Of a stretch of DNA of 64,000 bases, positions 39,133-52,511 are shown piece by piece (within the stretch, counting starts at the first letter, position 1; each line of letters begins with the position of its first letter). The notes under the pieces are model-generated. The model did no database searches. It was not told where the DNA came from and was given only the letters and a program-made list of their open reading frames with translations. The position numbers and the translations under genes are program-made. The stretch is from a virus (Duplodnaviria; Heunggongvirae; Uroviricota; Caudoviricetes): the IMG/VR virus record IMGVR_UViG_3300043410_000715, positions 25,711 through 89,710 of that record. The stretch is one strand, 5' to 3'.

Positions 39133-39825
39133 ATGAGAGCAAGTGAGTTTATCAAAGAAGAAGCTAGAATTATCGATGAGATGCCGCTACCTGCGGATTG
39201 GGATCCTGCATCAATGCGTCAGCAAGCTACTACGTTCAAAAGTCGTTTAGCCTATGCGTTAGAACGTGCTAAAAAATTAGGCACCGGATCAAGTCGTGTT
39301 GCTACTGTTATTGAGTATGAAGGTCGTCCTACTGTATTAAAGATTGCTAAGAATCAAAAAGGTCTAGCACAGAACAGTGTTGAGGCAGATATTCTTAGTG
39401 ATGGATATGCAAAACAGTTAGGTATACTAATACCAATCATTGACTATGATGAAGAAAATCGTGAACCTAGTTGGATTCACACTGAAATGGCCACTAAAGC
39501 TAGTGAGAAACAATTGTGTAACATAATGAAATGTTATGGTCTTGTTGATTTAGTTATGGCCGCACAAGCTCAATTAAATGAATATGGACAACGTTCACGT
39601 AGTGTACTGGACGACATTCTTGAAAAAAATCAGTTCTATGGTAACAGTGAAGATGACAATGAAATCTTCCTGCAATATGTTAACGACTTCGCTGACTTGA
39701 AGAATTCGTTTGATGTTGAATTGGGTGATTTTAACAGAGCCGCTAATTGGGGCATGTATCAAGGTAAACCAGTTGTAGTTGATGTGGGATTCAACAGCAA
39801 TGTTATGAATCAATATTATCGTTAA
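39133..39825 (+). CDS. hypothetical protein
   Basis: 230-aa ORF, last gene of the plus-strand island. Confidence 0.5.
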   Translation: MRASEFIKEEARIIDEMPLPADWDPASMRQQATTFKSRLAYALERAKKLGTGSSRVATVIEYEGRPTVLKIAKNQKGLAQNSVEADILSDGYAKQLGILIPIIDYDEENREPSWIHTEMATKASEKQLCNIMKCYGLVDLVMAAQAQLNEYGQRSRSVLDDILEKNQFYGNSEDDNEIFLQYVNDFADLKNSFDVELGDFNRAANWGMYQGKPVVVDVGFNSNVMNQYYR

Positions 39826-40646
39826 ACTTTTAACAACTCTTCCATCGTATACAAGTTACGCATATAAGGTGAAACATCTTCTAATACAGAAACAGCAAGA
39901 TCACCTTTTCTTCTAGGTCCATACTTTACATCAAAGTCACAATCGTTTACTTCCATAAATTTATTGACAATTTCACGAACAGTATATCCAACACCATGTC
40001 CCAATGATTCAACACTATTACTTGGTTTCTCTATTGCTTGCTTTAATGCATCACAAATCTCATTGACATGTACATAGTCACGAATACAAGTTCCATCAGG
40101 ACTTGCATCATAGTCCTTACCGAAAATAGTGAATTCTCCTGTTTCTCGGGCCTTCATTAAATTGTACATTAATCCATCGGGGTTAGTGGGAGCCACGACG
40201 GTGCTTCCAATAACATTATAAAATCTAAAGATTGTATATGGTGTCGGGCGATGGGTTGTACAATATTCTCCAACTACATCTTCTGCGGCTCTTTTGCTAA
40301 TACCGTATGCACTCTCACATCCAACTGCGGCACCTGTACTAGCAAAGATAAAGTTCTTTGTCTTGATTTTGTTAATCACATTCATTGTACCATTCAAGTT
40401 TGTGATGTAATACTGAATGGGTATTTGTTCGCTCTCACCCACATTAACTAATGCGGCTAAGTGAATAACGGCATCATATTCTTCTTCAATATTAAACAAT
40501 TTACGAATGTCAATCGTGTGATGCGTCTTGGGGAGTAGTTGCGGTGGATTAATGTCAAGCCCATGAACTTCATATTCATCTTGTAACATCTTAGTCAGAT
40601 GACTACCGATATATCCCGAGTTGCCTGTAATTAAAATCTTTTTCAT
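39822..40646 (-). CDS. NAD-dependent epimerase/dehydratase (short SDR-type sugar-nucleotide epimerase)
   Basis: 274 aa. N-terminal Rossmann motif ILITGNSGYIGSHL. Catalytic YxxxK (YGISKRA). Confidence 0.75.
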   Translation of the reverse strand: MKKILITGNSGYIGSHLTKMLQDEYEVHGLDINPPQLLPKTHHTIDIRKLFNIEEEYDAVIHLAALVNVGESEQIPIQYYITNLNGTMNVINKIKTKNFIFASTGAAVGCESAYGISKRAAEDVVGEYCTTHRPTPYTIFRFYNVIGSTVVAPTNPDGLMYNLMKARETGEFTIFGKDYDASPDGTCIRDYVHVNEICDALKQAIEKPSNSVESLGHGVGYTVREIVNKFMEVNDCDFDVKYGPRRKGDLAVSVLEDVSPYMRNLYTMEELLKV

Positions 40647-41998
40647 AGTCCCTCAAATAAGTTAGTTTCTTCTTCGTCTGGTACAAAGGTAGCATCTTTT
40701 GATAGATAAGTGTGATTGTCCGTATAAATGACGTTGAATTTATGTCTATTGGTTAACACACTTTCAAAATCTTCTCTCGCTAAATGTTTACGATTTAACT
40801 CTTTGATATAGTCAGCGTATTTCACTGTTTCGTATTCATTGATTTTAGCTTGATTAGATTTTGCTTTTCTACCTTCATACCCGTCAATAAAATCAATCCA
40901 AGACTGAACAGTATCAGTGTCAATAGACTTGACATATTCTAACGCTCCTGTTTTGTAATATTTTTCTGGATTAGATGTGTCGTGTAATCTTTTTAACGTG
41001 TCAGAAACTTCATCCATGTTAGTTCTATAATAGTAGATGTGTAGGAAATTCTCAGACCAATCTTGTGTGTCTAACACTACGCTAGGCATGTGTCCTAAAC
41101 ATTCATAGAATGCGAACGGAAAGTTTTCACGCAAGCTAGGCATAAAAAATACTGCACAACTTTTAATAAAGTCTACTTTCTCTTGTCCAGTAATCCCTGC
41201 TTTGATTTCGTAGTCAGTGATACCATTCTCTGCAAAAGCCTTCTCGAACTTCTTTTGTCCGTTACTGTTAGTCATAACTTTGCAGGGTAATCCTGATTCT
41301 TTCATCGCTTTGATATATGCTTCTGGGTTCTTACCTTCTTCCCATCGACCAATAAACAATACACCCCTGCGTTTCTTATAACTAGGCTCTAGTAACCCAC
41401 GCTCACTCAATGGCATCTGTAAAATACTTACATATTTTGAACCATGACTTTCTAATTCTATTTTGTTTTTCAGTGATTGAGTGCCGATAAAGATATCAGG
41501 AAATTCCATATGTTTGTTGTAGAAGTTGTGATAACTATCTAAGAACACATCACTACCTTGACCTGAACGGAAAATCATACTGTGTAAATGAGTATAGAAA
41601 ATCACAGGGATATCTTTATTCAAAGTCATCGCATAAGCCGCACTCATTGCTTCCTGCGTGTTGCACAAAATCATGTCATAGAGATTTTCTTCAAATGCTT
41701 CTAAGATGCTGTTACGGAAATTAATAATCTTTTCAAAGTTGATTGTATCACTAAACGCAAATGTAGCAGTGTGGTCACTATAACGTAGTGGTTCTAGTGG
41801 CCAAATAATGTTGGCACCAGCAGCCTCAATCACTTTATCAAACCCACCTGTAGGAGCCTTGTCTAAAAGAATATCTACTTTCCAACCAATCCGACCACAC
41901 ATTTCTGTAAAACTCTTACAGAAACTACCAATGCCACCATGCGGGATAAAATGTTGGTCACTAATTAAAAACGCAATTCTTTTCTTATATGTTTTCAT
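40643..41998 (-). CDS. glycosyltransferase (GT-B fold, GT4-like)
   Basis: 451 aa. Start overlaps the epimerase stop. Confidence 0.6.
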   Translation of the reverse strand: MKTYKKRIAFLISDQHFIPHGGIGSFCKSFTEMCGRIGWKVDILLDKAPTGGFDKVIEAAGANIIWPLEPLRYSDHTATFAFSDTINFEKIINFRNSILEAFEENLYDMILCNTQEAMSAAYAMTLNKDIPVIFYTHLHSMIFRSGQGSDVFLDSYHNFYNKHMEFPDIFIGTQSLKNKIELESHGSKYVSILQMPLSERGLLEPSYKKRRGVLFIGRWEEGKNPEAYIKAMKESGLPCKVMTNSNGQKKFEKAFAENGITDYEIKAGITGQEKVDFIKSCAVFFMPSLRENFPFAFYECLGHMPSVVLDTQDWSENFLHIYYYRTNMDEVSDTLKRLHDTSNPEKYYKTGALEYVKSIDTDTVQSWIDFIDGYEGRKAKSNQAKINEYETVKYADYIKELNRKHLAREDFESVLTNRHKFNVIYTDNHTYLSKDATFVPDEEETNLFEGL

Positions 41999-42234
41999 AC
42001 CTCACCTTTTAATCTCAAAATAATAAATTCTTCTTTGCACATCCATTTATACGAATCGATAATTTGCGTATCATATCTACGAGCCTTATAACCACGATAA
42101 GCAAACTGTAGCCACATAACCTGCATTGTTTCAATACAACGTTGTGGTAACCAACAGAACTTCAGTTCCCAAGCACGAGTTTTGCGTTCGTACTCATTAA
42201 GGTCGATTTCTTGATATTCTGGAACATCGATCAT
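41995..42234 (-). CDS. hypothetical protein
   Basis: 79-aa ORF. Confidence 0.45.
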   Translation of the reverse strand: MIDVPEYQEIDLNEYERKTRAWELKFCWLPQRCIETMQVMWLQFAYRGYKARRYDTQIIDSYKWMCKEEFIILRLKGEV

Positions 42235-42449
42235 TCAATTTTACCCCATTTAACTTTGAGCCATATGCGTTCGTGTATATAGTAATCTATACTTAGAAGT
42301 ATGTGAATCAGAACTGAACTCCCGATTGATTCTTCTAAGTTACCAGTAAGCCAATACATTATTGGTATTGTGAGTAACCACGCTGATAAGCGATAGGTAA
42401 TCATTCTAACTACTGTTCGTTTGTGTGTCTCTGCCATCATGTTCCCCAT
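42231..42449 (-). CDS. small membrane protein
   Basis: 72 aa with two TM helices. Confidence 0.45.
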   Translation of the reverse strand: MGNMMAETHKRTVVRMITYRLSAWLLTIPIMYWLTGNLEESIGSSVLIHILLSIDYYIHERIWLKVKWGKIE

Positions 42450-43279
42450 TCATTTTTAAATAATGGCACTTGCAATCTATCACTATAACGCCAGCCACGT
42501 TTCATTGCTGCCAATGCTACATTCTTTGCGTTCATTTCGTAAACACTTTCAACACCACCAACGGGCATCAAGTAGACTGGACCTTTGAATCCGCAGTTTT
42601 TGTATTCTTGTGTAGCTTTTTCAGCTTCCAATACATCTTCTTCTGAAGCCACCACGAACTTAAGGTATACAAAACCCACATCTTGGTATTGACGTATAAC
42701 ATTAGGCAAAATTGCTTCATTATACTTTTCTCCACTTACTGATAATTTAGGACTTACACTAAAAGTTAGTGCATTCTTTTCTCTATTTCTTTTCCAAAGT
42801 TGCAAGAATTCTTTAAATTCTTCACTCAAATGTTGTGTTCCGTTAGTCTCAAATGTTAACTCTTTGAGAGCCCTCATTTTTTCGTTCGAAAGTAATTCAG
42901 GATAGCTTCTTTGCCATCCAAGAAGTGGCTCACCCCCAGTAATAACCAAGTGTTCATCCATCCAACGACCATGAGGAAGTAAATCAATAATGCTATCGGC
43001 AATAGTATTAACATTGAGCATAGGACTAAGATGCTTGAAACGAGGGTCCCATGAAGCATATGAATCACAGCCCGTAGACACCAACGGTAAATTTTTATAC
43101 TCTGTAATACTATCTGCATCAATTGTAAACCTTTCATTACTAGTTTGACCTCTAGGCATACCGAAGCCTTCACATTTGAAGTTGCACCCAAATGTTCTCA
43201 AAAACACAGAAGGAACGCCCATATAACGTCCTTCACCTTGAATGCTATAAAATAATTCAGCTATTTTTAACTCTGCCAT
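42437..43279 (-). CDS. queE: 7-carboxy-7-deazaguanine synthase QueE (radical SAM)
   Basis: 280 aa. N-terminus FYSIQGEGRYMGVPSVFLRTFGCNFKC matches QueE (FQTLQGEGYFTGVPAIFIRLQGCPVGC). Confidence 0.85.
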   Translation of the reverse strand: MAELKIAELFYSIQGEGRYMGVPSVFLRTFGCNFKCEGFGMPRGQTSNERFTIDADSITEYKNLPLVSTGCDSYASWDPRFKHLSPMLNVNTIADSIIDLLPHGRWMDEHLVITGGEPLLGWQRSYPELLSNEKMRALKELTFETNGTQHLSEEFKEFLQLWKRNREKNALTFSVSPKLSVSGEKYNEAILPNVIRQYQDVGFVYLKFVVASEEDVLEAEKATQEYKNCGFKGPVYLMPVGGVESVYEMNAKNVALAAMKRGWRYSDRLQVPLFKNEWGT

Positions 43280-43298
43280 TTCTTTCTTTCATAATTCT

Positions 43299-43853
43299 TT
43301 ATGATAAATCAATAACCATTTCTTGTAAATAGAACTCGGAAAAATCTTCAATATATGGTACTATTGTTTTTACCAGTGTACTTACTTTCATTCTATCAGT
43401 TGGATTTTCGCCAGACGTATCTGCGGCTTTTGTATCAATCCATCCTGGAAAAACTGACATTATCAATGGTGTCTTTTTGGTGTTAGCATGTTGTCTAGCG
43501 AAAACCATTTGATTCATTTTTTCCGTATAATATTTTGATTCTTGTGTGCCCGGAACAATCAATGAAGGATCCTTTAACACCTTTTTACTATTCATGTTTA
43601 CTATTAACTTTTTAAAACCCAACCAAGATGCTGTTGCCTTCTTTAATAATTCAAGTTGTGATTCACCATAAACATTATTAATAAACACATCGCACGATTT
43701 TAACTGTTCAAGTATTAAATCTTGCGTGTGACTGTCAACTACATTATAGCCATTTAGCAAATCATAACCATGTATCACATGACCTGCATTTCTTAACTGA
43801 GTGGCAAATTCTAAACCAATACCACCCATATGCCCTGTAATTACTATATTCAT
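43299..43853 (-). CDS. short-chain dehydrogenase/reductase-like protein (truncated SDR)
   Basis: 184 aa. TGxxGGIG dinucleotide motif (ITGHMGGIG), YxxxK (YYTEK) and PGxIxT (PGWIDT). Confidence 0.6.
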   Translation of the reverse strand: MNIVITGHMGGIGLEFATQLRNAGHVIHGYDLLNGYNVVDSHTQDLILEQLKSCDVFINNVYGESQLELLKKATASWLGFKKLIVNMNSKKVLKDPSLIVPGTQESKYYTEKMNQMVFARQHANTKKTPLIMSVFPGWIDTKAADTSGENPTDRMKVSTLVKTIVPYIEDFSEFYLQEMVIDLS

Positions 43854-44002
43854 TTACCAATGCCTTATAACGCCTGCAACAATAAAAATATTTGTGACTA
43901 TATATGTTAGCACAATGCAGGTTCTAATCAAAGCGATACGGTCAGCTTCCTGATCCGTATCACCTGATTTTTCGCCAAGGGCTTTCGCCCATAAACGCCA
44001 AA
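43854..44002 (-). CDS. small membrane protein (49 aa)
   Basis: Below cutoff. MKNIWRLWAKALGEKSGDTDQEADRIALIRTCIVLTYIVTNIFIVAGVIRHW. Stop overlaps the ATG of the SDR gene as TAAATG. Confidence 0.3.
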
Positions 44003-44011
44003 TGTTCTTCA

Positions 44012-44632
44012 TTATCCTTGGTCAGTATCGTGTATACGCTTCTTTAAGAAGTTCAATAGAACACCATATGCTGGTAAGAACACAATAATACCTACTGCAA
44101 TCTTTAGGATAGTTTGACTCAATGCAATTTCACTCCAGTTAGCCGCCATGTATTCGTCTGCACTTTGATAGAATGCAACACTGAAGAATGTGTAACTATC
44201 AATAAAGTTTGCGGCAATCATTGATAATGCAGGAGCCGCCCACCATTGCTTAGTGAACTTCTCACGGACATATTGGAATACATATACATCAAGTAGTGTA
44301 CCTACTAAGTATGCTGTTGCACTAGCAAAACCAATACGCAATGCTACTGATTGAGGTGCTCCCTCTAACAATACAACTGCAATACTACCTAAGATAGCAA
44401 ATGGATATGCTGCCGCAATAGTTGCCCGTGCAATACCTTTACCTAGTAAACGGACTGTCAAGTCTGTTGCCAAAATAACTAATGGGAAGGTAAATGCCGC
44501 CCAAGTTAATTTAACACCTAAGATTTCAACTGGGATTGAAACCAATGCGTTTGAAATTATAATAACAATAACGTGCAATACTGCAAGCATTGCCATCATT
44601 TTCTTATCTACGTCTTTAAATAATGAAAACAT
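44012..44632 (-). CDS. yhhQ: queuosine-precursor (preQ0/preQ1) transporter, YhhQ/Vut (DUF165) family
   Basis: 206 aa, six TM helices. Size and topology match YhhQ. Sits within the que gene cluster. Confidence 0.7.
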   Translation of the reverse strand: MFSLFKDVDKKMMAMLAVLHVIVIIISNALVSIPVEILGVKLTWAAFTFPLVILATDLTVRLLGKGIARATIAAAYPFAILGSIAVVLLEGAPQSVALRIGFASATAYLVGTLLDVYVFQYVREKFTKQWWAAPALSMIAANFIDSYTFFSVAFYQSADEYMAANWSEIALSQTILKIAVGIIVFLPAYGVLLNFLKKRIHDTDQG

Positions 44633-44634: not shown

Positions 44635-45138
44635 TTACTCCTTAAATAAATCTTCATTCCACTCTCTATGACCTTCTCTGAAAGCCATATTGCTTTGAGT
44701 CTCCCGTACTTCTACACGGTAGCACCAAAGTCTTTTTGCTTCTCCCTCACCCCACATCTCAGGAATGTAAACACCATTGACATACTTGTATAGCATATCA
44801 CTTAGTGCTTCACAACCTAACGCAGGCAAGACGATGATTTTAGCCATCTTCTTTTCTTGTAATAGTTTGAATGTTTCCATTTCTGGATCATCTTGTGCTA
44901 CGATAAGTGTGTGGTCGAATTGATCTTCCAAGAACTTCTTCAATTCTTTTAGACCACCATAGTCGGCAGCCCAGTTACGGGCATCTAAATCGTTTGTACC
45001 GAAATAGAATTTCATACTGAAACTGTAACCATGAATTGTGTTGCAATGGCTGTCTGCACGCCATTGACGATAAGCACACGGAAACGCATCGTGGTATTCT
45101 TTTGTGCTTGTGTATTTGTATGTAATTGGATTATGCAT
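44635..45138 (-). CDS. queD: 6-carboxy-5,6,7,8-tetrahydropterin synthase QueD / PTPS-like
   Basis: Start moved to Met21 (AGGAGAAAAT Shine-Dalgarno). CNTIHGYSF matches the QueD zinc motif CGRLHGHSF. T-fold size. Confidence 0.75.
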   Translation of the reverse strand: MHNPITYKYTSTKEYHDAFPCAYRQWRADSHCNTIHGYSFSMKFYFGTNDLDARNWAADYGGLKELKKFLEDQFDHTLIVAQDDPEMETFKLLQEKKMAKIIVLPALGCEALSDMLYKYVNGVYIPEMWGEGEAKRLWCYRVEVRETQSNMAFREGHREWNEDLFKE

Positions 45139-45212
45139 ATTTTCTCCTATGTTAATTTTAGCATAGGACGCAGAATTTATATACCGGGGTGAGCCCATAA
45201 GACCGGTTTATG

Positions 45213-45674
45213 TTATTTACCATTTTCAGATTCAGCTACTCTTTTTCTCAAACTAGAACTTGAGAAACTATGGTCACGAGAGTTAAACACGTGTTCTATA
45301 CCTTTTTCGGTCCCTTCTTTTCTACCAGTAAAGTCCTGACTTTGATATTCGACACCGAGTATTCTAACGTCAACTGGAAGGATGAGGAGAAGGTCGATGA
45401 GGTCTTGTTCGGTTGAGTATACAACAACTTCATCAACAAAACGACACGATGCCAATTGTATTTGTCGCTCCACAATTGACTGTACAGGTTTATTCTTCGT
45501 ATCTGGTCTGTCGATAGTGGGGTCAGTTTGGAGTCCTGCAATAAGGTAGTCACAATGATTTTTAGCCTCAGCCAACATAGCAATGTGCCCTGCGTGAAGT
45601 AAGTCAAAAGTTGAGAATGTAATGCCAATCTTTTTGCCTGCTTCTTTAAGTTGTTTTATCTTGTTGAATATCAT
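45213..45674 (-). CDS. nucleotidyltransferase (cytidylyl/adenylyltransferase, TagD / RfaE domain II-like)
   Basis: 153 aa. HxGH motif (FDLLHAGH). Confidence 0.75.
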   Translation of the reverse strand: MIFNKIKQLKEAGKKIGITFSTFDLLHAGHIAMLAEAKNHCDYLIAGLQTDPTIDRPDTKNKPVQSIVERQIQLASCRFVDEVVVYSTEQDLIDLLLILPVDVRILGVEYQSQDFTGRKEGTEKGIEHVFNSRDHSFSSSSLRKRVAESENGK

Positions 45675-46241: not shown

Positions 46242-46371
46242 TATCTGGTGTGTTCTTTATAGTATAAAACATGAACAAGCCCGCCACACAAAATAAAAAT
46301 ATGTAAACTGCTTGTTCAATAATCATTCCAAGTAATAAACTCATGTTTGAAAGAAATTCAATCATTTGCAT
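46171..46371 (-). CDS. small membrane protein with Cys-rich C-terminus
   Basis: 66 aa. One TM helix. CTGNCNQGRNCNCKEKK tail. Confidence 0.4.
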   Translation of the reverse strand: MQMIEFLSNMSLLLGMIIEQAVYIFLFCVAGLFMFYTIKNTPDSACTGNCNQGRNCNCKEKKDGIS

Positions 46372-47042
46372 CCTTTGTTAGCAATTTGTAAGAACTCACC
46401 ACGTGCAGATGGATCTGTTTTGAAACCGCCACCCAATCGGCATGTAACTGTGCTGGATCCCGTATCTTCAACACCTCTTGATTTAACACAATAGTGTTGT
46501 GCGTCAATGAGGACTGCAACATCTTCAGTTTCAAGAATGAACTGAAGTGTGTGGAAGATTTGCTCGGTAAGACGTTCTTGGATCTGAGGTCGTTTACTAA
46601 AATACTCGACAATTCGATTAATCTTCGATAAGCCAAGGACTTTCTGCTTAGGAACATAAGCAACTGTAGCCAAGCCATCAATAACGACAAAGTGATGTTC
46701 GCAGTTACTTTGGACTGAAACGTTTCGTTCAACGACCATTTCGTTGTAGTGCATTTTGTTATCAACTGTAGTACACTTTGGAAATGCTTCATAATCTAGA
46801 CCCCAGAAAATTTCATTAACATACATTTTAGCAACACGCTTAGGTGTTTCAGTTAAACTATCATCAGTTAAGTCTAATCCTAAGATACGCATGATTTCAG
46901 TGAAGTGACCTTCGATGCCTGCAATTTGATCCTTGCGGTCGATGTTGCGTTTGTTGATTGGTGTTTCTACACCCATTTTGACTAAGTGCTCATGCACTTG
47001 TTGACCCAACTCAGGGTCGGTTTTTGTTTTGTTATAACTCAT
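46362..47042 (-). CDS. folE: GTP cyclohydrolase I FolE
   Basis: Start moved to MSYNKTKT (AAGGAAGGA Shine-Dalgarno). Aligns along its full length to E. coli FolE, including the CEHH zinc motif and the SKINR block. Confidence 0.9.
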   Translation of the reverse strand: MSYNKTKTDPELGQQVHEHLVKMGVETPINKRNIDRKDQIAGIEGHFTEIMRILGLDLTDDSLTETPKRVAKMYVNEIFWGLDYEAFPKCTTVDNKMHYNEMVVERNVSVQSNCEHHFVVIDGLATVAYVPKQKVLGLSKINRIVEYFSKRPQIQERLTEQIFHTLQFILETEDVAVLIDAQHYCVKSRGVEDTGSSTVTCRLGGGFKTDPSARGEFLQIANKGCK

Positions 47043-47077
47043 AGAATCCTTCCTTACGCGGATATGAAAATTGAAAT

Positions 47078-47097
47078 GTGCTACCGTTGTGTAGCAC
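47078..47097 (-). terminator. hairpin GTGCTAC-n6-GTAGCAC upstream of folE (possible terminator or attenuator)
   Basis: 7-bp perfect inverted repeat followed on the minus strand by ATTTCAATTTTCA. Confidence 0.3.
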
Positions 47098-47109
47098 ATG
47101 TATTTATAC

Positions 47110-47494: not shown

Positions 47495-47718
47495 TTTTTC
47501 TCCTTTGATTTACGCTTTGGTTTTGGTTTTGCTTTCGCTTCTTCTGTTTCTACAGAGGCAATTGCTTCTCTTACTGCTTCCAATAATGCTTCATCGTCCC
47601 AAACAAGTTCAGTTGAACCATCTTCAAAAGTCTTTACGGTCAGGTGTTGACCTTGACTAATTACGGGCCAACCACCTGATGGTTCGTTAGCCAATACTTC
47701 TTTTTTCTTTCGTGCCAT
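47491..47718 (-). CDS. hypothetical protein with Lys-rich C-terminal tail
   Basis: 75 aa. Ends in EEAKAKPKPKRKSKEKK. Confidence 0.45.
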   Translation of the reverse strand: MARKKKEVLANEPSGGWPVISQGQHLTVKTFEDGSTELVWDDEALLEAVREAIASVETEEAKAKPKPKRKSKEKK

Positions 47719-48224
47719 TATTCTTCCTCCTTAGTGCCTTCTTGTGGTCTAGTGAAGGGCCATTTTGCTCTTTCTTCTACAATAGGTGCAAGTTCAGGTA
47801 AGACTTCTTCTTCTGGTTGACCAGTGTGAATAATTTGTTCTTCGTCACCGTCGATGCGTTCAATGATTAAGTCGCAATCAATAATCATTTCAGTATCATT
47901 GCTATACCAACCGTGTTCTTCCAAATCAAATACAGAATTTTCTTCTAGGAATTCTTCTAGCCACGCTTGTGTTTCTTCATCACAACCGTCGAAATCATAA
48001 TCGTCCCAGCATCCATCAAATGTTTCTACAAGTTCAGTTTCATAGTCACAGTTATAGATATCTACACCTGCTTCAATGTCTGGGGGATTGTCATCATCTG
48101 TGTATACAGTAAACTCACCACCGCGCCAACCTGTTTCATAGATGAATGATTGTCCATCTTTAGTCCATTCTTGGCGCTCAATAATTGATTTCTTCCACTG
48201 GGGTTTTACGCTCCACTCAGCCAT
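47718..48224 (-). CDS. hypothetical highly acidic protein
   Basis: 168-aa ORF. Confidence 0.5.
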   Translation of the reverse strand: MAEWSVKPQWKKSIIERQEWTKDGQSFIYETGWRGGEFTVYTDDDNPPDIEAGVDIYNCDYETELVETFDGCWDDYDFDGCDEETQAWLEEFLEENSVFDLEEHGWYSNDTEMIIDCDLIIERIDGDEEQIIHTGQPEEEVLPELAPIVEERAKWPFTRPQEGTKEEE

Positions 48225-49134
48225 TTGTTGTCTCCTCTAAATCTGGATCGATACTAATTCCCTGCCACTCTTTAATTTTCACTTCTTCATCATTCCATGT
48301 CTTGATCCACTTATCACCAGTCCACTTTGCTTGATATGTATAACTATTCTTACCAGCAGTCTTTACATTATATATACCTTCACGGACTGGTTTGATTTTT
48401 TTAGGGAACCAGTCAGTCAATGGATAAACAATGTCATCCATGTTTGAATACTTCTCGTATCCCTTACCATCGTGCTTGTTAGAGCCTGCAATGTAGAAAC
48501 CAAAGTCTGAACTCTTGCCACTAGTGTCACCACCGTAGTTGTCAATTTGTTCATCGTTATAGTACACACCGGTGATGATTTCGTTACAATCAATCTCTGA
48601 ATATTCGAGTGAAAGTTTAGTGATATCGAAAGGAGATTTTAGTTCTAAGTGACCTTCATAGAACGTACCTTTCTCACTGCTTACTCCTAAGAATACAACA
48701 GTGCCTGGATCTTTCATGTCAATCCATATCTCGTCACCACCACGCCATTCAGGGCTATCTTCACTGTAACCATCAATGTTATCAGTACTGGCTTCATAAA
48801 CTACATTGTCGTTTTCGTCTAAGATTTGCAACGTGCCTGCGCCTCTGTCAACACCCCAGTGATGACCCATATCATCACAGTCATGCCATTGACCTGGATA
48901 GAATGGTTGCATATCTTCAGGAATTTGATTGTCATTAGCATAGTCACTATCCCAGGCATAGTCACTTATGTCAAGACGGCGTCTTTTGAAATAGTCGTAT
49001 ATTTTGCGGTCTACTGTACCCATCACATATTCACCACCATATCCCCACAATTGAATCTTGTAAGTACACGGAGTGAACTTTAAAATCTCAATGAGTTTTT
49101 CATGCTCAGGGTTTTTAACTACTTCTGTTGACAT
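48217..49134 (-). CDS. hypothetical protein
   Basis: ORF 48217-49230 trimmed to Met33, which sits 1 nt after the stop of the upstream glycosyltransferase (TAA-T-ATG). Confidence 0.5.
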   Translation of the reverse strand: MSTEVVKNPEHEKLIEILKFTPCTYKIQLWGYGGEYVMGTVDRKIYDYFKRRRLDISDYAWDSDYANDNQIPEDMQPFYPGQWHDCDDMGHHWGVDRGAGTLQILDENDNVVYEASTDNIDGYSEDSPEWRGGDEIWIDMKDPGTVVFLGVSSEKGTFYEGHLELKSPFDITKLSLEYSEIDCNEIITGVYYNDEQIDNYGGDTSGKSSDFGFYIAGSNKHDGKGYEKYSNMDDIVYPLTDWFPKKIKPVREGIYNVKTAGKNSYTYQAKWTGDKWIKTWNDEEVKIKEWQGISIDPDLEETTNG

Positions 49135-49135
49135 A

Positions 49136-50323
49136 TTAGTATTTGCTTTCTCTAGAATGTTTACGATAATCGGTTGACATACGAAGGTATTGTTCACCCT
49201 TCCCCTCAATGATATCACAGATACGGTCAATAGTCAAGTCAGTCCAGTCACTGATTTTACCCATGTTATCACTGGGCTTCTTCAATAACTTTTCAAGTTT
49301 GTCCAAAGCATCATCAATAGACCATGGTACGTAAAGTCTGGTATAATCATTTGCAAAAGTTTCTGGGAAACTCCTATAAGCAGGATACAACACATTGCAA
49401 CCAAGAGCGTCCGCTTCGGAAACTGTGTTACTAACCCAATCTTGTAAAGCACAGTTAAAAACAACACGACTATCATTGACAATATTATAGTAATCATTTT
49501 TGTTTAAATCCTCATGTAAAGTTAAGGTTCCTGCAGCCTGCATATTTCGGGTGCGTTGCATATAACTATCGTTGTTACTTTTTAATTTTGCACCTGAACA
49601 AATTGCAAACTCTACACCACTTCCAGGATGACGTTTGTGCCAAGCATCAATTAAATCCATATAGAAGTCTGGTTGTTTTTCTTGATCCCATCGTGCTGAG
49701 AACACGACACGATGTTTGCGTTCATTGAATGGTTTGATTGTACCAACTCGTTCAATTACTTCTTGTTTACCAAATGCTAGACCACTGATATTGTAGATTG
49801 GAACTTCCCAACCTGCAATCTTCATGTTCATGACCATTTCTTCGTTAGACGCAAGGATAGCACCCCCACTTTGACTGACAGCCTCACACACCATCTGTTC
49901 ATATAGCCCCATCCACTTGGACATCCCCCATACATGCACAAAGTCATCAGGGTCGATTGACTGAGCCAAGCATCTAACAAAAATCTTTGGACGATGCGAC
50001 TGAGGGACCTGATTAAGAATATAAGGCAAACTCTCAAAGCCTGGTTGAAACATATCTTCAAAGTAGATAACATCTTCACTTGTAACAATTCCTTCTTTCA
50101 TCCACTTGACCAATGTCATTAATTGACTCATGCCAAAATAACTACGACCATGTGCATCTAATACTTGACCTGTTACGATTTGTTGGTCTGTAGATAATGT
50201 TTCACCGGGTACTACTACATAGTCAATACCTCTACGCTTAAAGACACGCTCATTCCACTCTGTGAGTTGTAGAGTGTATCTTGCTTTGTAGGGTTCTAGA
50301 CCCATGTAATATAGTGTTCTCAT
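49136..50323 (-). CDS. glycosyltransferase (GT-B fold)
   Basis: 395 aa with two Rossmann-like halves. Overlaps the upstream nucleotidyltransferase by ATGA. Confidence 0.6.
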   Translation of the reverse strand: MRTLYYMGLEPYKARYTLQLTEWNERVFKRRGIDYVVVPGETLSTDQQIVTGQVLDAHGRSYFGMSQLMTLVKWMKEGIVTSEDVIYFEDMFQPGFESLPYILNQVPQSHRPKIFVRCLAQSIDPDDFVHVWGMSKWMGLYEQMVCEAVSQSGGAILASNEEMVMNMKIAGWEVPIYNISGLAFGKQEVIERVGTIKPFNERKHRVVFSARWDQEKQPDFYMDLIDAWHKRHPGSGVEFAICSGAKLKSNNDSYMQRTRNMQAAGTLTLHEDLNKNDYYNIVNDSRVVFNCALQDWVSNTVSEADALGCNVLYPAYRSFPETFANDYTRLYVPWSIDDALDKLEKLLKKPSDNMGKISDWTDLTIDRICDIIEGKGEQYLRMSTDYRKHSRESKY

Positions 50324-51096
50324 TCTTTTCTCTCAATATCTTCTTCTACACATTCTTCACCGTATTGTATTTCTACAATACGACAAGGAATTTCATATGG
50401 GTTAATTAACTGATGCCAATCACCTTTAGGAATATGTTTACTATGATGTTCATTTAATAACGTTACTGGCAAAACATAACCATTTGGCATCATGCTATTG
50501 ACATGACACATACCATGTGTAACTAGCCAATATTCATTACGCTTAAAATGTTTTTGCATACTAAGACGTTGACCAGGTTCAATTGTTAGTTCTTTAACTT
50601 TGCATCCTGATACTTCGTGTAGTATACGATAATATCCCCATGGTCGCATTATTTTAGGTTGCTTCCATTCTTGCAATATCCAAGAACTGGAATTCATTTT
50701 GTTTTCACCACCGACGCCGAAAACAAAATTAACATCATCAAATACCATTTCTGGAATGTTGTTTTTATTTCTATCGCCACCGTTAGCAAAAATGATTTCA
50801 TCATTTGGATACATCATTTTTACATTACGAATAGCTTCGATGCTAGAACCATCGTCATCGTTATAGATAACACAATGATCTACCATTTTTAAATTCTCAA
50901 TGATTGACATACGTTCAGCAATAGGCATAAAAGGTTGGCCCTTTTTACGAGCCAACCATGCGTCACTGTTTACGCCAACAACTAACTTGTCGCCTAACTG
51001 TTTTGCGGCTTTGAAATATTCAATATGACCGCTATGTAGTGGATCAAATCCACCAGTGACTAAAACTATTTTCATGGACGTGCGTGTTCCACCCAT
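50320..51096 (-). CDS. sugar-phosphate nucleotidyltransferase (RfaE domain II-like) fused to C-terminal cupin
   Basis: 258 aa. N-terminal TGGFDPLHSGHIEYFKAAKQLGDKLVVGVNSDAWLARKKG matches the RfaE II motif [40 protein letters not shown]. C-terminal cupin motifs (QKHFKRNEYWLVTHG). Confidence 0.7.
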   Translation of the reverse strand: MGGTRTSMKIVLVTGGFDPLHSGHIEYFKAAKQLGDKLVVGVNSDAWLARKKGQPFMPIAERMSIIENLKMVDHCVIYNDDDGSSIEAIRNVKMMYPNDEIIFANGGDRNKNNIPEMVFDDVNFVFGVGGENKMNSSSWILQEWKQPKIMRPWGYYRILHEVSGCKVKELTIEPGQRLSMQKHFKRNEYWLVTHGMCHVNSMMPNGYVLPVTLLNEHHSKHIPKGDWHQLINPYEIPCRIVEIQYGEECVEEDIERKE

Positions 51097-51278
51097 TGAT
51101 TTTTTACTGGTCTGCTAGTAGCAAACTTAGTAAATTGACGATACACATAACTCCGCTGATTGTATAAATCTGCTTCGTCATACTTATAACCATACTCTTG
51201 GCAAAAATCTAAATATTTGTCTAAATCGTCAAAGATTTGATTGACTTTTGCGTTGGGTTTGATTTGCGGTTTTGCCAT
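51072..51278 (-). CDS. hypothetical protein
   Basis: 68-aa ORF. Confidence 0.45.
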   Translation of the reverse strand: MAKPQIKPNAKVNQIFDDLDKYLDFCQEYGYKYDEADLYNQRSYVYRQFTKFATSRPVKNQWVEHARP

Positions 51279-51289
51279 TTTATTTTCCT

Positions 51290-51745
51290 TTAAATAGCGA
51301 GTTGTTGATAAGGTTTAGTTCTATTGTAATAAATCGTAGCGCCGTTCTCACCATCTTCGGAGACAGTAATCTCAATGTCACGATCGGGATATCGTTGTGC
51401 GATTTGATTGTATAAATCATCGCTCAACATTTCACAACTTTTGTAATCCAACTCTAGTGTGCCTTGAGAATATAACTTCTCTAGCCAACGCTTGAATTGA
51501 ATAAACTCAATATCCCTGTCGTTGTGAAATACTTCAATCGCTACATTAAAATGAAAGATGTGACGATGTGGAGTTCCTAAAAAGCTAACATCATATTCAT
51601 CACCTGTTGCAAGTGCTGGATCTGTTGCTGCCGCTGGGTACTTATGAATACCCTCTTTTTGAAATGTTACAAAAATCATACGTTTAGCCTGATGACTAAT
51701 GCGTTGCATTTGTTCAAATAATGCTTGTTCTCTTTGAATGTCCAT
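51290..51745 (-). CDS. hypothetical protein
   Basis: 151-aa ORF. Confidence 0.5.
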   Translation of the reverse strand: MDIQREQALFEQMQRISHQAKRMIFVTFQKEGIHKYPAAATDPALATGDEYDVSFLGTPHRHIFHFNVAIEVFHNDRDIEFIQFKRWLEKLYSQGTLELDYKSCEMLSDDLYNQIAQRYPDRDIEITVSEDGENGATIYYNRTKPYQQLAI

Positions 51746-51987
51746 TAATAATTCCTATTAAGTGTTGCCCATGTTAACCACTGATGAAATGCATTATACA
51801 CTCTTTCAGCTTCTTTTTCATCTTGAGGTACCTTAATACCTCTTACATAAAATCCGTCTTTATCAATACGCAGTTGTTCACCGGTACCCATATGAAACGT
51901 AATATTACTTTCGGAATCTACTGATAAAGCTCTGTCAATCATATTCATTTCCAATAAGGTCCCCATGCCCAACCAATTAATGACCAA
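51745..51987 (-). CDS. hypothetical protein
   Basis: 80-aa ORF. Confidence 0.45.
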   Translation of the reverse strand: MVINWLGMGTLLEMNMIDRALSVDSESNITFHMGTGEQLRIDKDGFYVRGIKVPQDEKEAERVYNAFHQWLTWATLNRNY

Positions 51988-52511
51988 CGTGTGCCTGACA
52001 CAATCGGTGTAATTTCGTGTGGGAAAAAAGTAGGAAATGAAATTACACTACCCTTTTTCAATTTATGTTTTATTCCCAAAACGTTAAATTCTCCACCTTC
52101 GTATTCGTCATCGTTCGTTAATTGTACACTTAACGTAATCTTCCTGTCTATACTTCCGGTTAAACTGTAATAATTATCTGTATGTCTACCGAAATAATCA
52201 CCTGATGTATAACGTTTTAATTCATATGGCTCAACAAAATCAATATCAACTTCAAAATGATTTCTTATTTCTTGCCAAACATCTTGTAAATTCTTATGCG
52301 CTTCGTTTTCTAACGGTAGCAAACAGGTATGAAAACTTACATCAAATAACTGAGTATACTTGTTTATGCCTTGTTTAACATTATCAGTGCCGAATTTAAT
52401 GATATCATCACACAGTGATGCATCAATCACATTTTCTTTAACAAAGATGCGTTTTTCTATATCCCAACTTATGTCAGGTTTAGGACTGTTTGGTATATTA
52501 TCTGTCATCAA
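51945..52511 (-). CDS. 2OG-Fe(II) oxygenase (prolyl-4-hydroxylase-like)
   Basis: 188 aa. HxD...H facial triad (HTDNYY ... FPHEITP). RxS-type 2OG contact (RWS). Confidence 0.6.
   Translation of the reverse strand: MMTDNIPNSPKPDISWDIEKRIFVKENVIDASLCDDIIKFGTDNVKQGINKYTQLFDVSFHTCLLPLENEAHKNLQDVWQEIRNHFEVDIDFVEPYELKRYTSGDYFGRHTDNYYSLTGSIDRKITLSVQLTNDDEYEGGEFNVLGIKHKLKKGSVISFPTFFPHEITPIVSGTRWSLIGWAWGPYWK

What the first reader, a model, noticed from the sequence alone, without database searches (positions are those of the whole stretch)
39822..52511. Sugar-nucleotide and glycosyltransferase module interleaved with the deazaguanine genes suggests a more complex hypermodification
The same co-directional block encodes a short NAD-dependent epimerase (39822-40646) and two GT-B glycosyltransferases (40643-41998, 49136-50323). 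It also has two HxGH nucleotidyltransferases of the RfaE-domain-II/TagD type (45213-45674 and 50320-51096). The second is fused to a cupin. A P4H-type 2OG-Fe(II) oxygenase (51945-52511) and a short SDR (43299-43853) complete the set. The near-identity of the RfaE II signature (FDPLHSGH...LGDKLVVGVNSDAWL) implies activation of a heptose- or glycerol-phosphate-type substrate. All genes overlap by a few nt with que genes, implying co-expression. One possibility is sugar attachment to a modified base, making a glycosylated deazaguanine or an oxidised and then glycosylated pyrimidine, by analogy with hydroxylase-plus-glycosyltransferase systems such as 5-hmC glucosylation or base J. A second is decoration of virion proteins. 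A third is remodelling of host LPS or capsule, as in ADP-heptose-type chemistry. Co-clustering of glycosyl chemistry with dpdA/que genes has not, to my knowledge, been described as a defined system.
Basis: partly seen in the sequence, partly recalled or inferred. Interest (0 to 1): 0.8.

Follow-up and report, generated by a model that had tools for sequence, protein, structure and literature searches.

The report
Sugar-transferase genes wired into deazaguanine DNA-modification cluster
This uncultured large phage, like thousands of relatives and cultured phages such as PA5oct and ACP17, keeps a glycosyltransferase inside the gene cluster that replaces guanine in DNA with 7-deazaguanine, so its DNA may carry an undescribed sugar-decorated purine, though no chemistry has been done.

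Summary
All the listed ORFs exist on the minus strand and belong to the stated superfamilies. The fine assignments (RfaE-II/TagD/HldD) fail the curated cut-offs, and the SDR call is weak.

The deazaguanine context is a DpdA/DpdL-type system. It has FolE, QueD and QueE, and no QueC was found in the window. It also has a DpdL (LxxxHRHxF motif) and a 523-aa protein that no profile recognises but whose model matches TGT enzymes.

The key new result concerns the 395-aa GT-B enzyme, called GT2 here. It is not an incidental neighbour.
- DpdL and the TGT-like gene accompany it in 66 of 66 IMG/VR loci with enough flank.
- The same holds in every distant family member I sampled.
- The same holds in BUCT-ZZ01, ACP17, PA5oct, Phosso, BUDD and BCSR5.
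- GT2 is more conserved than the DNA polymerase.
- It is absent from isolate bacterial genomes.

An epimerase and a HIGH-type nucleotidyltransferase also recur in these clusters. The 2OG oxygenase, the SDR-like gene and the Vut_1 transporter are sporadic.

The best reading is a glycosylated 7-deazaguanine-derived base in DNA, with confidence about 0.45. The acceptor atom is unknown. Surface-glycan and pterin-glycoside roles remain possible. I found no published description. It can be tested directly by LC-MS on the cultured phages.

The parts
52704..54275 (-). X523: divergent TGT-fold transglycosylase (DpdA-like), next to the sliding clamp and DNA polymerase
   Evidence: No Pfam, NCBIfam or PDB sequence hit, even with a profile. 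Motifs GDSGGFQ (102-108), GWAFGGQ, HCLG and TFDCASPF (300-307). AF2 pLDDT 87.8. The top three Foldseek PDB hits are bacterial TGT at 1.5e-7, ArcTGT at 3.5e-6 and human QTRT1 at 4.4e-6. hhalign against ACP17/ZZ01/phiST DpdA-type proteins gives E 1.3e-4 and probability 54%. 34% identical to PA5oct gp168.
51290..51745 (-). DpdL: QueD-like T-fold protein, the proposed 7-carboxy-7-deazaguanine decarboxylase
   Evidence: Motif FLGTPHRHIF fits the LxxxHRHxF signature defined in PMC10516641. 34-35% identical to phiST CGPG_00067, 59% to ACP17 gp125 and 63% to PA5oct gp166. phrog_17812, E 2e-36.
51072..51278 (-). h68: conserved 68-aa protein of unknown function between DpdL and GT2
   Evidence: Present in 29 of 29 full-length related loci. 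No family hit.
50320..51096 (-). NTcup: HIGH-type (HxGH) nucleotidyltransferase fused to a PMI-type cupin
   Evidence: PF01467 E 1e-14 plus PF01050 E 1.8e-25. rfaE_dom_II scores 82 bits against a cut-off of 181.5. Present in 11 of 29 full loci.
49136..50323 (-). GT2: GT4-like GT-B glycosyltransferase, a core member of the cluster
   Evidence: AF2 and Foldseek. R211, K216 and E303 are invariant across the family, together with N-domain residues E10, R15, Y16, Q67, D90 and D127. More than 600 IMG/VR relatives. DpdL and X523 accompany it in 66 of 66 loci. 63% identical to the BUCT-ZZ01 copy.
46362..47099 (-). FolE, GTP cyclohydrolase I
   Evidence: PF01227, E 1.8e-60. Present in 29 of 29 loci.
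45213..45674 (-). NT153: stand-alone HIGH-type nucleotidyltransferase
   Evidence: PF01467, E 1.6e-10. rfaE_dom_II scores 83 bits against 181.5. Present in 24 of 29 loci. It recurs at different positions in distant clusters L096 and L098.
44635..45198 (-). QueD, 6-carboxytetrahydropterin synthase
   Evidence: PF01242, E 2.4e-16. Present in 29 of 29 loci.
44012..44632 (-). Vut_1/YhhQ-family membrane transporter (accessory)
   Evidence: PF02592, E 1e-22. Present in only 2 of 29 loci.
43299..43853 (-). Short Rossmann, SDR-like protein (accessory, weak call)
   Evidence: adh_short E 0.016 for the N-terminus only. Present in 1 of 29 loci.
42437..43279 (-). QueE, radical-SAM 7-carboxy-7-deazaguanine synthase
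   Evidence: NCBIfam QueE models, E 8e-17 and weaker, all below cut-off. 49% identical to the annotated QueE of BUCT-ZZ01. Present in 24 of 29 loci, the others probably beyond the flank.
40643..41998 (-). GT1: second GT-B (GT4-like) glycosyltransferase
   Evidence: PF00534 at 27.5 bits against 26.4. EX7E motif. 40% identical to the BUCT-ZZ01 copy, which lies between FolE and DpdA. Present in 19 of 29 loci. Distant homologues at 25% elsewhere lie outside que clusters.
39822..40646 (-). EPI: short GalE-like NAD-dependent sugar-nucleotide epimerase
   Evidence: PF01370, E 8e-32. GalE scores 159 bits against 262. Present in 24 of 29 loci. An extended-SDR epimerase also follows GT2 in L085, L086 and L095-L100.
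51945..52511 (-). P4H-type 2OG-Fe(II) oxygenase (accessory)
   Evidence: PF13640, E 1.6e-13. Present in 2 of 29 loci.
54670..58194 (-). Sliding-clamp-like protein (54670-55401) and family-B DNA polymerase (55480-58194), which head the conserved block
   Evidence: Homology to the PA5oct polymerase and gp170. The Pol-clamp-X523 order is conserved in all related loci.

Best explanation
The block is a DpdA/DpdL-type 7-deazaguanine DNA-modification system with a built-in glycosylation branch.

Shown or strongly inferred: FolE, QueD and QueE make 7-carboxy-7-deazaguanine from GTP. No QueC was found in the window. DpdL is the QueD paralogue proposed to decarboxylate CDG. The divergent TGT-fold protein X523 sits beside the polymerase and clamp, and is inferred to exchange guanine in phage DNA for the deazapurine.

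Inferred from conserved linkage only: GT2 is a retaining-type GT4-like enzyme with intact donor-binding residues. It acts on the product of this pathway, either the base already in DNA or the free base before insertion. In this clade GT1 adds a second sugar, or an alternative one. NT153, NTcup and the GalE-like epimerase would supply a phage-made NDP-hexose, probably of the mannose, glucose or galactose type, from host sugar phosphates.

The predicted result is a glycosylated 7-deazaguanine-derived nucleobase that shields DNA from restriction enzymes and from nucleases or glycosylases that sense modified bases. The acceptor atom is unknown, because plain 7-deazaguanine has no hydroxyl.
For: The pathway genes are identified. 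X523 has the TGT fold.

GT2 is linked to DpdL and the DpdA-like gene in several independent samples.
- 66 of 66 IMG/VR loci with at least 5 kb upstream, and 29 of 29 full-length loci together with FolE and QueD.
- Cultured phages with two different DpdA types: BUCT-ZZ01, ACP17 (gp123-124-125), PA5oct (gp168-167-166), Phosso, BUDD and BCSR5.
- Distant GT2-family members at 30-39% identity, including a PolA-type phage.
- All cultured-phage GT2 hits with E below 1e-13 are in phages that carry DpdL.

GT2 is more conserved than its neighbours. Between the window and L085 it is 56% identical, against 48% for the polymerase and 36% for X523. Its acceptor (N-terminal) domain is more conserved than its donor domain, and polar N-domain residues are invariant across the family.

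The family is phage-specific. Only 6 hits occur in 185,579 species genomes, all on MAG contigs, and the five long enough to judge carry phage polymerase, clamp and DpdA/DpdL genes.

The epimerase and NT153 persist in clusters whose gene order has been shuffled.

Experimental context from the literature: PA5oct DNA resists enzymes whose sites contain G, and its modification is unidentified (PMC12191111). [quoted passage not shown]
Against: - No chemistry exists for any GT2-carrying phage.
- Cellulophaga phage phiST has DpdL and DpdA3 without any GT, and its DNA carries plain dDG at 100% of G. The GT is therefore not needed for deazaguanine insertion.
- 7-deazaguanine has no OH or NH handle at C7, and no conserved hydroxylase or reductase is present. 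The 2OG oxygenase is in 2 of 29 loci and the SDR-like gene in 1 of 29.
- GT2's nearest structural neighbours are small-molecule and lipid GT4 enzymes, not the T4 alpha- or beta-glucosyltransferases.
- GT1 and NTcup are less conserved. Distant GT1 homologues lie outside que clusters.
- Similar sets of sugar, NTase and GTase genes in jumbo cyanophages have been read as surface-polysaccharide systems (PMC7824862).
Confidence: 0.45

Rival explanations
1. The sugar genes work independently of the DNA modification. They build or remodel a glycan on the host surface (LPS, capsule or S-layer) to block superinfection, or they glycosylate virion proteins. The phage DNA would carry only plain 7-deazaguanine, as in phiST.
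For: Iyer et al. 2021 describe jumbo and cyanophage clusters of epimerases, cupin isomerases, HIGH-type nucleotidyltransferases and GTases, and assign them to surface polysaccharide (PMC7824862). GT1, NTcup and EPI have a patchier distribution. Distant GT1 homologues sit in unrelated contexts. GT2's structural neighbours are generic GT4 enzymes. phiST makes dDG without a GT.
Against: The published argument for a surface role rests on sporadic, polymorphic distribution. GT2 shows the opposite pattern: it is universal next to DpdL and DpdA, and more conserved than the polymerase across phages of very different hosts. No priming transferase, flippase, polymerase or lipid-carrier enzyme is in the block. 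The family is absent from isolate bacterial genomes. The genes lie in the replication module, not the structural module.
Confidence: 0.22
2. DpdL, GT2, the SDR/epimerase and FolE form a pteridine-glycoside branch. FolE makes dihydroneopterin triphosphate, the PTPS-like DpdL makes a tetrahydropterin, and GT2 glycosylates it, as cyanobacterial pteridine glycosyltransferases do with tetrahydrobiopterin. This would run in parallel with the QueD/QueE/DpdA deazaguanine route.
For: DpdL is a PTPS/QueD paralogue that lacks the QueD catalytic Cys, and its decarboxylase role is unproven. The DpdL-GT2 pair is the tightest linkage, and an SDR-family gene and FolE often follow directly. Pteridine glycosyltransferases are GT-B proteins of about 359 aa that were modelled on GT4 structures such as 2JJM (PMC4133829), and 2JJM is among GT2's Foldseek hits.
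Against: QueE and a TGT-fold gene accompany the pair in every long locus. The pair occurs in phages of Pseudomonas, Acidovorax, Burkholderia, Xanthomonas and Sinorhizobium, where I know of no role for a pterin glycoside (my own knowledge, not checked). The SDR is of the extended NDP-sugar epimerase type with a GalE best hit, not the classical sepiapterin or pteridine reductase type. phiST needs a decarboxylase, and DpdL is the only candidate.
Confidence: 0.08
3. GT2 acts in the deazaguanine pathway but not by decorating the final DNA base. It might glycosylate or stabilise a biosynthetic intermediate, modify DpdA or another replisome protein, or modify a different nucleobase.
For: The linkage evidence shows a functional connection but not the acceptor. 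Another TGT-fold protein, Cap10, modifies a protein (PDB 9ntn, among the hits). No O-acceptor is obvious on 7-deazaguanine.
Against: No hydroxymethyl-pyrimidine pathway genes were found in the 64-kb window. The restriction pattern of PA5oct points to G. I know of no precedent for a transient glycosyl intermediate in deazapurine synthesis (my own knowledge).
Confidence: 0.15

Closest known systems
DpdA3/DpdL 7-deazaguanine (dDG) system of Cellulophaga phage phiST (Cui, Hutinet et al., NAR 2023, PMC10516641)
   Same: FolE, QueD and QueE without QueC. A DpdL with the LxxxHRHxF motif. A highly divergent TGT-like transglycosylase. Location next to replication genes.
   Different: phiST has no glycosyltransferase, nucleotidyltransferase or epimerase. 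Its DpdA3 is 259 aa, and X523 is 523 aa and only remotely alignable to it. The final base in the window's phage family is unknown.
Deazaguanine clusters of Pseudomonas phage PA5oct (gp162-gp168) and Acidovorax phage ACP17 (gp119-gp126)
   Same: The triad of DpdA-like gene, GT2-family GT and DpdL, plus QueE, next to the DNA polymerase. PA5oct shares the X523-type transglycosylase at 34% identity and DpdL at 63%.
   Different: They carry a short-form GT2 (342-353 aa, about 22% identical to the window's). No GT1, NT153, NTcup or epimerase was seen in the fetched regions. ACP17 uses a different DpdA type.
T4 hydroxymethylcytosine glucosylation (alpha- and beta-glucosyltransferases)
   Same: Phage GT-B enzymes that would decorate a non-canonical base after replication, using an NDP-sugar. 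Two GTs in one phage.
   Different: The base here is a purine analogue inserted by base exchange. No hydroxymethylase is present. GT2 is structurally nearer to GT4 than to AGT or BGT. The phage encodes its own sugar-nucleotide enzymes.
Mannosyl- and galactosyl-queuosine in eukaryotic tRNA (the QTMAN enzyme is a GT4-type protein; recalled from memory, not tested)
   Same: A GT-B/GT4-type enzyme glycosylating a 7-deazaguanine derivative in a nucleic acid.
   Different: The substrate there is tRNA, and the sugar goes onto the cyclopentenediol OH of queuosine. No such side-chain pathway (QueA, QueG or QueH) is present here.
Sugar, NTase and GTase clusters of jumbo cyanophages, assigned to surface polysaccharide (Iyer et al. 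2021, PMC7824862)
   Same: NAD-dependent epimerase, cupin isomerase, HIGH-superfamily nucleotidyltransferase and GT-B GTases in a large aquatic phage.
   Different: Here the genes are interleaved with deazaguanine genes, and GT2 is universally conserved rather than sporadic. No PfkB kinase and no polysaccharide export or polymerisation genes are present.

Membership tests
DpdA (DNA-guanine transglycosylase, TGT superfamily): X523 | TGT-type TIM-barrel fold | tested here: met
   AF2 pLDDT 87.8. The top three Foldseek PDB hits are TGT, ArcTGT and QTRT1, E 1.5e-7 to 4.4e-6.
DpdA (DNA-guanine transglycosylase, TGT superfamily): X523 | Sequence-profile match to TGT (PF01702) or to known DpdA subfamilies | tested here: not met
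   No Pfam, NCBIfam or PDB sequence hit even at E 10. Only hhalign E 1.3e-4 and probability 54% to an alignment of ACP17 gp123, its BUCT-ZZ01 homologue and phiST DpdA3.
DpdA (DNA-guanine transglycosylase, TGT superfamily): X523 | Catalytic Asp motifs (DSGGxQ, and an Asp nucleophile in an FDC/FDx motif) | tested here: met
   GDSGGFQ at 102-108 and TFDCASPF at 300-307. D103, S104, G106, Q108 and D302 are invariant in 65 homologues. The assignment to the TGT catalytic residues is by motif resemblance only.
DpdA (DNA-guanine transglycosylase, TGT superfamily): X523 | Inserts a deazaguanine into DNA | not testable with these tools
   Indirect only. It is adjacent to the polymerase and clamp, and DNA of PA5oct, which carries a homologue, resists enzymes whose sites contain G.
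DpdL (proposed CDG decarboxylase) | LxxxHRHxF in place of the QueD motif CxxxHGH | tested here: met
   FLGTPHRHIF.
DpdL (proposed CDG decarboxylase) | Homology to phiST CGPG_00067, and co-occurrence with DpdA, FolE, QueD and QueE but not QueC | tested here: met
   blastp and tblastn E 1.6e-14 to 1.8e-16. No QueC was found among the window ORFs scanned. The rest of the genome is unseen.
GT4-like retaining GT-B glycosyltransferase (GT2, GT1) | GT-B two-Rossmann fold | tested here: met
   Met for GT2: Foldseek hits MshA, GlgM, BshA and PimA at about 1e-8, TM 0.5-0.63. GT1 was not modelled.
GT4-like retaining GT-B glycosyltransferase (GT2, GT1) | Pfam Glycos_transf_1 above the gathering score | tested here: inconclusive
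   GT1 scores 27.5 against 26.4 and passes. GT2 scores 22.7 against 26.4 and fails, although close homologues carry precomputed PF00534.
GT4-like retaining GT-B glycosyltransferase (GT2, GT1) | EX7E motif and donor-phosphate Arg/Lys | tested here: met
   GT1 has RENFPFAFYE. GT2 has D295-x7-E303, and R211, K216 and E303 are invariant in 18 divergent members.
HldE/RfaE domain II (heptose-1-P adenylyltransferase) | Score above the TIGR02199 cut-off (181.5 bits) | tested here: not met
   83.1 and 82.3 bits. Only the general PF01467/TIGR00125 family is met.
TagD (glycerol-3-P cytidylyltransferase) | Score above the TIGR01518 cut-off (165.4 bits) | tested here: not met
   54.6 and 49.7 bits.
HldD (ADP-heptose 6-epimerase) or GalE | Equivalog score (TIGR02197 274.6, TIGR01179 262.3) | tested here: not met
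   52 bits for HldD. 159 bits for GalE, which is the best hit. GxxGxxG and YxxxK are present.
Type II phosphomannose isomerase cupin (C-terminus of NTcup) | PF01050 above cut-off, and the QxHxxRxExW motif | tested here: met
   89.8 bits against 23.6. The sequence reads SMQKHFKRNEYW.
Hydroxylase-plus-GT base systems (5-hmC glucosylation, base J) | A conserved hydroxylase or hydroxymethylase that creates the sugar acceptor | tested here: not met
   The 2OG oxygenase is in 2 of 29 related loci. No hydroxymethylase or thymidylate-synthase-like gene was found in the window.
Pteridine glycosyltransferase pathway | Sequence relationship of GT2 to BGluT/PGT enzymes | not tested
Only a shared GT-B/GT4-like fold class is known.

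The most novel reading that the evidence does not exclude
A very abundant group of aquatic large phages, together with cultured phages such as PA5oct, ACP17, BUCT-ZZ01, Phosso, BUDD and BCSR5, replaces guanine with a sugar-bearing 7-deazaguanine derivative. As far as I know, this would be the first glycosylated purine analogue in any DNA. It would be made by a phage-specific GT4-like enzyme family (GT2) that works with DpdL and a new, unrecognised DpdA subfamily. The sugar might be attached through unusual chemistry. One option is a C-glycoside on the electron-rich pyrrole ring. Another is an O-glycoside on a hydroxyalkyl side chain, if DpdL in fact feeds QueE an alternative pterin.
Probability: 0.4. 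Interest if true: 0.9.

Novelty: new variant of a known kind. Interest (0 to 1): 0.72.

Why it matters
Eight 7-deazaguanine derivatives are known in phage DNA, and none carries a sugar. The DpdL branch is the least understood: its decarboxylase role is unproven and reconstitution with the ACP17 genes failed.

A glycosyltransferase family that is obligately linked to DpdL and DpdA gives a concrete candidate for the missing enzyme. It also predicts a new class of DNA hypermodification. GT2 and the X523 transglycosylase each have thousands of homologues in public metagenomes.

The prediction can be tested at once, because PA5oct, ACP17, BUCT-ZZ01 and others are in culture. PA5oct is a phage-therapy candidate whose G modification is still unidentified.

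The work also defines a DpdA-like subfamily that current profiles miss, so deazaguanine systems are probably under-counted in viromes.

Tried and rejected
- Near relatives in INPHARED: none. The only DNA-level match covers 2% of the block.
- Sequence and profile searches of X523 against Pfam, NCBIfam and PDB found nothing. Only the structure resolved it.
- An HMM search of PDB sequences with the GT2 profile gave only chance hits.
- Looking for informative domain fusions in the GT2 family found none. There are 1003 representative clusters, and the single 655-aa member has a low-complexity tail.
- Isoelectric points as a clue to DNA binding were uninformative. Even the polymerase and X523 are acidic.
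- Promoter and terminator scans showed no excess over shuffled sequence.
- A look-up of the window's own contig by exact protein was not on record.
- A literature search on 'DpdL' alone returned mostly unrelated acronyms.
- The hydroxylate-then-glycosylate model built on the 2OG oxygenase, and a reductive model built on the SDR-like gene, were rejected because both genes are sporadic.
- The heptose and glycerol-phosphate assignment was rejected on curated cut-offs.
- Distant GT homologues in Erwinia and Xanthomonas jumbo phages (L093, L094, L105) lie in other contexts. They were judged to be outside the GT1 and GT2 families proper.

Full report
**1. What is in the window**

The region 39822-58194 is one co-directional, tightly packed minus-strand block. 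Read 5' to 3' on that strand, it runs as follows:
- family-B DNA polymerase (55480-58194);
- a clamp-like protein (54670-55401);
- a 132-aa ORF;
- a 523-aa protein, X523 (52704-54275);
- small ORFs and a 2OG-Fe(II) oxygenase (51945-52511);
- a 151-aa protein (51290-51745);
- a 68-aa ORF;
- a nucleotidyltransferase-cupin fusion, NTcup (50320-51096);
- a 395-aa glycosyltransferase, GT2 (49136-50323);
- two very acidic proteins;
- FolE (46362-47099);
- small ORFs;
- a 153-aa nucleotidyltransferase, NT153 (45213-45674);
- QueD (44635-45198);
- a Vut_1/YhhQ transporter (44012-44632);
- a 184-aa Rossmann protein (43299-43853);
- QueE (42437-43279);
- two small ORFs;
- a 451-aa glycosyltransferase, GT1 (40643-41998);
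- a 274-aa epimerase, EPI (39822-40646).

They do not confirm the fine ones. Both nucleotidyltransferases score about 83 bits on rfaE_dom_II against a cut-off of 181.5, and about 50-55 bits on TagD against 165. The epimerase is GalE-like (159 bits against 262) and not HldD-like (52 against 275). The 'SDR' has only a marginal N-terminal match (E 0.016). The cupin is a type II phosphomannose-isomerase domain (PF01050, 89.8 bits), which points to mannose-type rather than heptose or glycerol chemistry. That last step is inference.

The rest of the 64-kb window encodes ligase, exonuclease, ClpP/ClpX, HSP20, SOD and similar functions. It has no QueC and no hydroxymethyl-pyrimidine enzymes. There is no near relative among 50,697 deposited phage genomes.

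**2. The deazaguanine context is a DpdA/DpdL system**

The 151-aa protein carries FLGTPHRHIF. This is the LxxxHRHxF signature that Cui, Hutinet and colleagues used to define DpdL. DpdL is the QueD paralogue they proposed as the CDG decarboxylase of phages that have FolE, QueD and QueE but no QueC, and whose DNA (phiST) carries 2'-deoxy-7-deazaguanine in place of all G (PMC10516641). The window protein is 34-35% identical to phiST CGPG_00067, 59% to ACP17 gp125 and 63% to PA5oct gp166.

It does contain GDSGGFQ, GWAFGGQ, HCLG and TFDCASPF, and D103 and D302 are invariant in 65 homologues. An AlphaFold2 model built from an alignment spanning 33-91% identity is confident (pLDDT 87.8). Its three best PDB matches are bacterial TGT, archaeosine TGT and human QTRT1, at E 1.5e-7 to 4.4e-6. 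X523 is therefore a TGT-fold enzyme and very probably a new, unrecognised DpdA-type subfamily. It is only marginally alignable to an alignment of phiST DpdA3, ACP17 gp123 and its BUCT-ZZ01 homologue (hhalign E 1.3e-4).

Its homologue in Pseudomonas phage PA5oct (gp168, 34% identity) lies in the same Pol-clamp-X523 arrangement. PA5oct DNA resists restriction enzymes in a pattern that suggests modified G, and the modification is chemically unidentified (PMC12191111).

**3. The sugar genes are part of the conserved cluster, above all GT2**

GT2 has more than 600 relatives in IMG/VR and about 8000 in the protein collection. In the 80 fetched loci the gene order is conserved: Pol, clamp, X523, DpdL, h68, (NTcup), GT2..., FolE..., NT153, QueD, QueE..., GT1, EPI.

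Gene presence in the 29 loci with at least 9 kb on both sides of GT2:

| Gene | Loci with the gene |
|---|---|
| X523, DpdL, h68, FolE, QueD | 29 |
| QueE, NT153, EPI | 24 |
| GT1 | 19 |
| NTcup | 11 |
| 2OG oxygenase | 2 |
| Vut_1 | 2 |
| SDR-like | 1 |

Some of the missing genes probably lie beyond the flank. DpdL and X523 are present in 66 of 66 loci with at least 5 kb upstream of GT2.

The linkage extends far beyond this clade.
- **BUCT-ZZ01 (Synechococcus phage):** QueE, PRT, QueD, FolE, GT1 (40%), a DpdA of the ACP17 type, DpdL, GT2 (63%).
- **ACP17 (Acidovorax phage):** gp123 (DpdA type), gp124 (short-form GT2), gp125 (DpdL), QueE.
- **PA5oct:** gp168, gp167 (short-form GT2), gp166.
- **Phosso, BUDD and BCSR5:** the GT lies next to or near DpdL.
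- **Metagenomic phages with X523 only 32-36% identical:** they keep GT2, in two cases at 55-57% identity. That is more conserved than the polymerase (about 47%) or X523 itself.
- **Four GT2-family members at 30-39% identity:** all have DpdL immediately upstream. One is in a PolA-type phage. Two of the four also have FolE, QueD and QueE nearby; the other two contigs are only about 4 kb long.
- **Cultured phages:** every GT2 hit with E below 1e-13 is in a phage that carries DpdL.
- **The converse does not hold:** no GT2 was found in phiST, or within 12 kb of DpdL in RHph_I1_18 and Ahp1. GT2 therefore looks like an add-on downstream of DpdL.

An extended-SDR epimerase follows GT2 directly in L095 and L097-L100, and lies 1.7-2.8 kb downstream of it in L085 and L086. 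NT153 reappears at different positions in L096 and L098. Membership of the cluster thus survives rearrangement.

In a scan of one genome for each of 185,579 species, GT2 was found only on six MAG contigs. The five long enough to judge carry phage polymerase, clamp and DpdA/DpdL genes. GT2 is therefore a phage-specific family and not a recently captured host LPS gene.

**4. What GT2 is**

The AF2 model (pLDDT 81) is a GT-B fold. It is closest to retaining GT4 enzymes (MshA, GlgM, BshA, GumK, PimA, PglA) and not specifically to the T4 alpha- or beta-glucosyltransferases. In the viral structure library its second-best match is ACP17 gp124 (E 2e-12), which confirms that the long and short forms are one family.

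Across 18 divergent members the invariant residues are R211, K216, P218, K275 and E303 in the C-terminal domain. R211, K216 and E303 correspond to the usual GT4 donor-binding positions, within a D-x7-E variant of EX7E. E10, R15, Y16, Q67, D90, A120 and D127 are invariant in the N-terminal domain. Among long forms the N-terminal (acceptor) domain is more conserved (64-75%) than the C-terminal (donor) domain (54-66%), except in the closest relative, L095. This fits a catalytically competent transferase with one invariant acceptor. It fits poorly with host-specific surface glycans.

**5. Mechanism: shown versus inferred**

- **Shown by homology and structure:** a CDG-forming pathway, a DpdL, a TGT-fold enzyme, two GT-B transferases, two HIGH-type nucleotidyltransferases (one fused to a PMI cupin) and a GalE-like epimerase.
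- **Shown by comparative genomics:** GT2 is functionally tied to DpdL and DpdA.
- **Inferred:** X523 inserts the deazapurine into DNA. GT2 glycosylates that base or its precursor. GT1 adds a second sugar. The NTases and the epimerase provide the NDP-sugar.
- **Unknown:** the acceptor atom. Plain 7-deazaguanine has no hydroxyl, and no conserved hydroxylase or reductase is present.

Speculative options for the acceptor:
- a C-glycoside on the pyrrole ring;
- an acyl-glycoside on dCDG;
- a hydroxyalkyl-deazaguanine, if DpdL feeds QueE a different tetrahydropterin. PTPS paralogues that make 6-hydroxymethyl-pterins are known; this is from my own knowledge and was not tested.

**6. Rivals**

- **(a) Surface glycan or virion glycosylation.** This is the published reading of similar sugar, NTase and GTase clusters in jumbo cyanophages, and it rests on their sporadic, polymorphic distribution (PMC7824862). 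That reading fits GT1, NTcup and EPI better than GT2. It is weakened by the universal, highly conserved, replication-module location of GT2 and by the absence of any polysaccharide assembly genes.
- **(b) A pteridine-glycoside branch.** FolE, a PTPS-like protein, an SDR and a GT-B enzyme are the enzyme set for tetrahydrobiopterin glucoside. Pteridine glycosyltransferases are GT4-like proteins of about 359 aa (PMC4133829). I could not obtain a PGT sequence to compare. The extended-SDR, GalE-like nature of the reductase and the host range argue against this rival.
- **(c) GT2 acts in the pathway but on an intermediate or a protein.**

**7. Novelty**

Full-text searches found no paper that links glycosyltransferases to DpdA, DpdL or deazaguanine clusters. 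The Cui et al. paper never mentions a glycosyltransferase and explicitly leaves room for 'other unknown enzymes' in ACP17. Some database records already label the PA5oct-type or Phosso gene 'glycosyltransferase', but without interpretation.

The system is a new variant of the known 7-deazaguanine DNA-modification kind. It is not proven chemically.

**Verdict**

The interest is high because the prediction can be tested immediately on cultured phages.

Noticed in passing
window 47718-48224 and 48217-49230: Two very acidic proteins lie between FolE and GT2. One is 168 aa with pI 4.05 and 50 D+E residues. The other is 337 aa from a TTG start with pI 4.5; its likely real start is the ATG at 49134, just after the GT2 stop. 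Neither has a family hit. They could be DNA-mimic or anti-restriction proteins.
   Followed up: no
L001:10093-10554; L087:13805-14323; L097 about 12682-12990; L098 about 12769-13119: A phosphoribosyltransferase gene (annotated as xanthine-guanine PRT in BUCT-ZZ01) recurs inside related DpdA/DpdL/GT2 clusters but is absent from this window. It could salvage the guanine expelled by base exchange, or point to a nucleotide-level route.
   Followed up: partly
L083:7303-7701 (ACP17 gp122); L085 about 16713-17153; L086 about 15232-15666; L095-L100: A conserved protein of unknown function sits just upstream of DpdL (after DpdA, or after GT2 in L085 and L086) in many related clusters. It has no counterpart in the window, where h69, the 2OG oxygenase and h80b occupy that position.
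   Followed up: partly
window 6141-6734, 11056-12258, 10293-10730, 8349-8840: The phage encodes ClpP, a ClpX-like AAA+ ATPase with the ClpX zinc finger, an HSP20 small heat-shock protein and an SprT-like protease.
   Followed up: no
window 35608-39825 (+ strand): An oppositely oriented four-gene island abuts the epimerase gene. It holds a GP88-domain protein, an Fe/Mn superoxide dismutase (37245-37799), a 431-aa radical-SAM protein (37830-39125) and a 230-aa unknown protein.
   Followed up: no
window 17125-17850, 26678-27256, 31557-32408, 60738-61313, 61310-62269: Auxiliary-type genes are present: a fatty-acid-desaturase-like protein, a GNAT acetyltransferase, an SPFH/Band-7 protein, a class I glutamine amidotransferase/peptidase C26 and a TctC-like solute-binding protein.
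   Followed up: no
L104 (Logan SRR33371504 contig, 17 kb): A PolA-type phage, whose polymerase is fused to UDG, carries QueD, QueE, FolE, DpdL and GT2 plus a second radical-SAM gene directly after the GT. My reference sequences detected no recognisable DpdA there.
   Followed up: partly
L105 (Xanthomonas phage PhiXhv-15, 6747-9981): A distant GT4 relative lies next to GlmS and an LmbE/BshB-type deacetylase. This is a different phage sugar module and is not linked to deazaguanine genes.
   Followed up: no
window 52704-54275, residues 476-523: X523 ends in a low-confidence (pLDDT below 50), acidic C-terminal tail. The tail varies in length among homologues.
   Followed up: no
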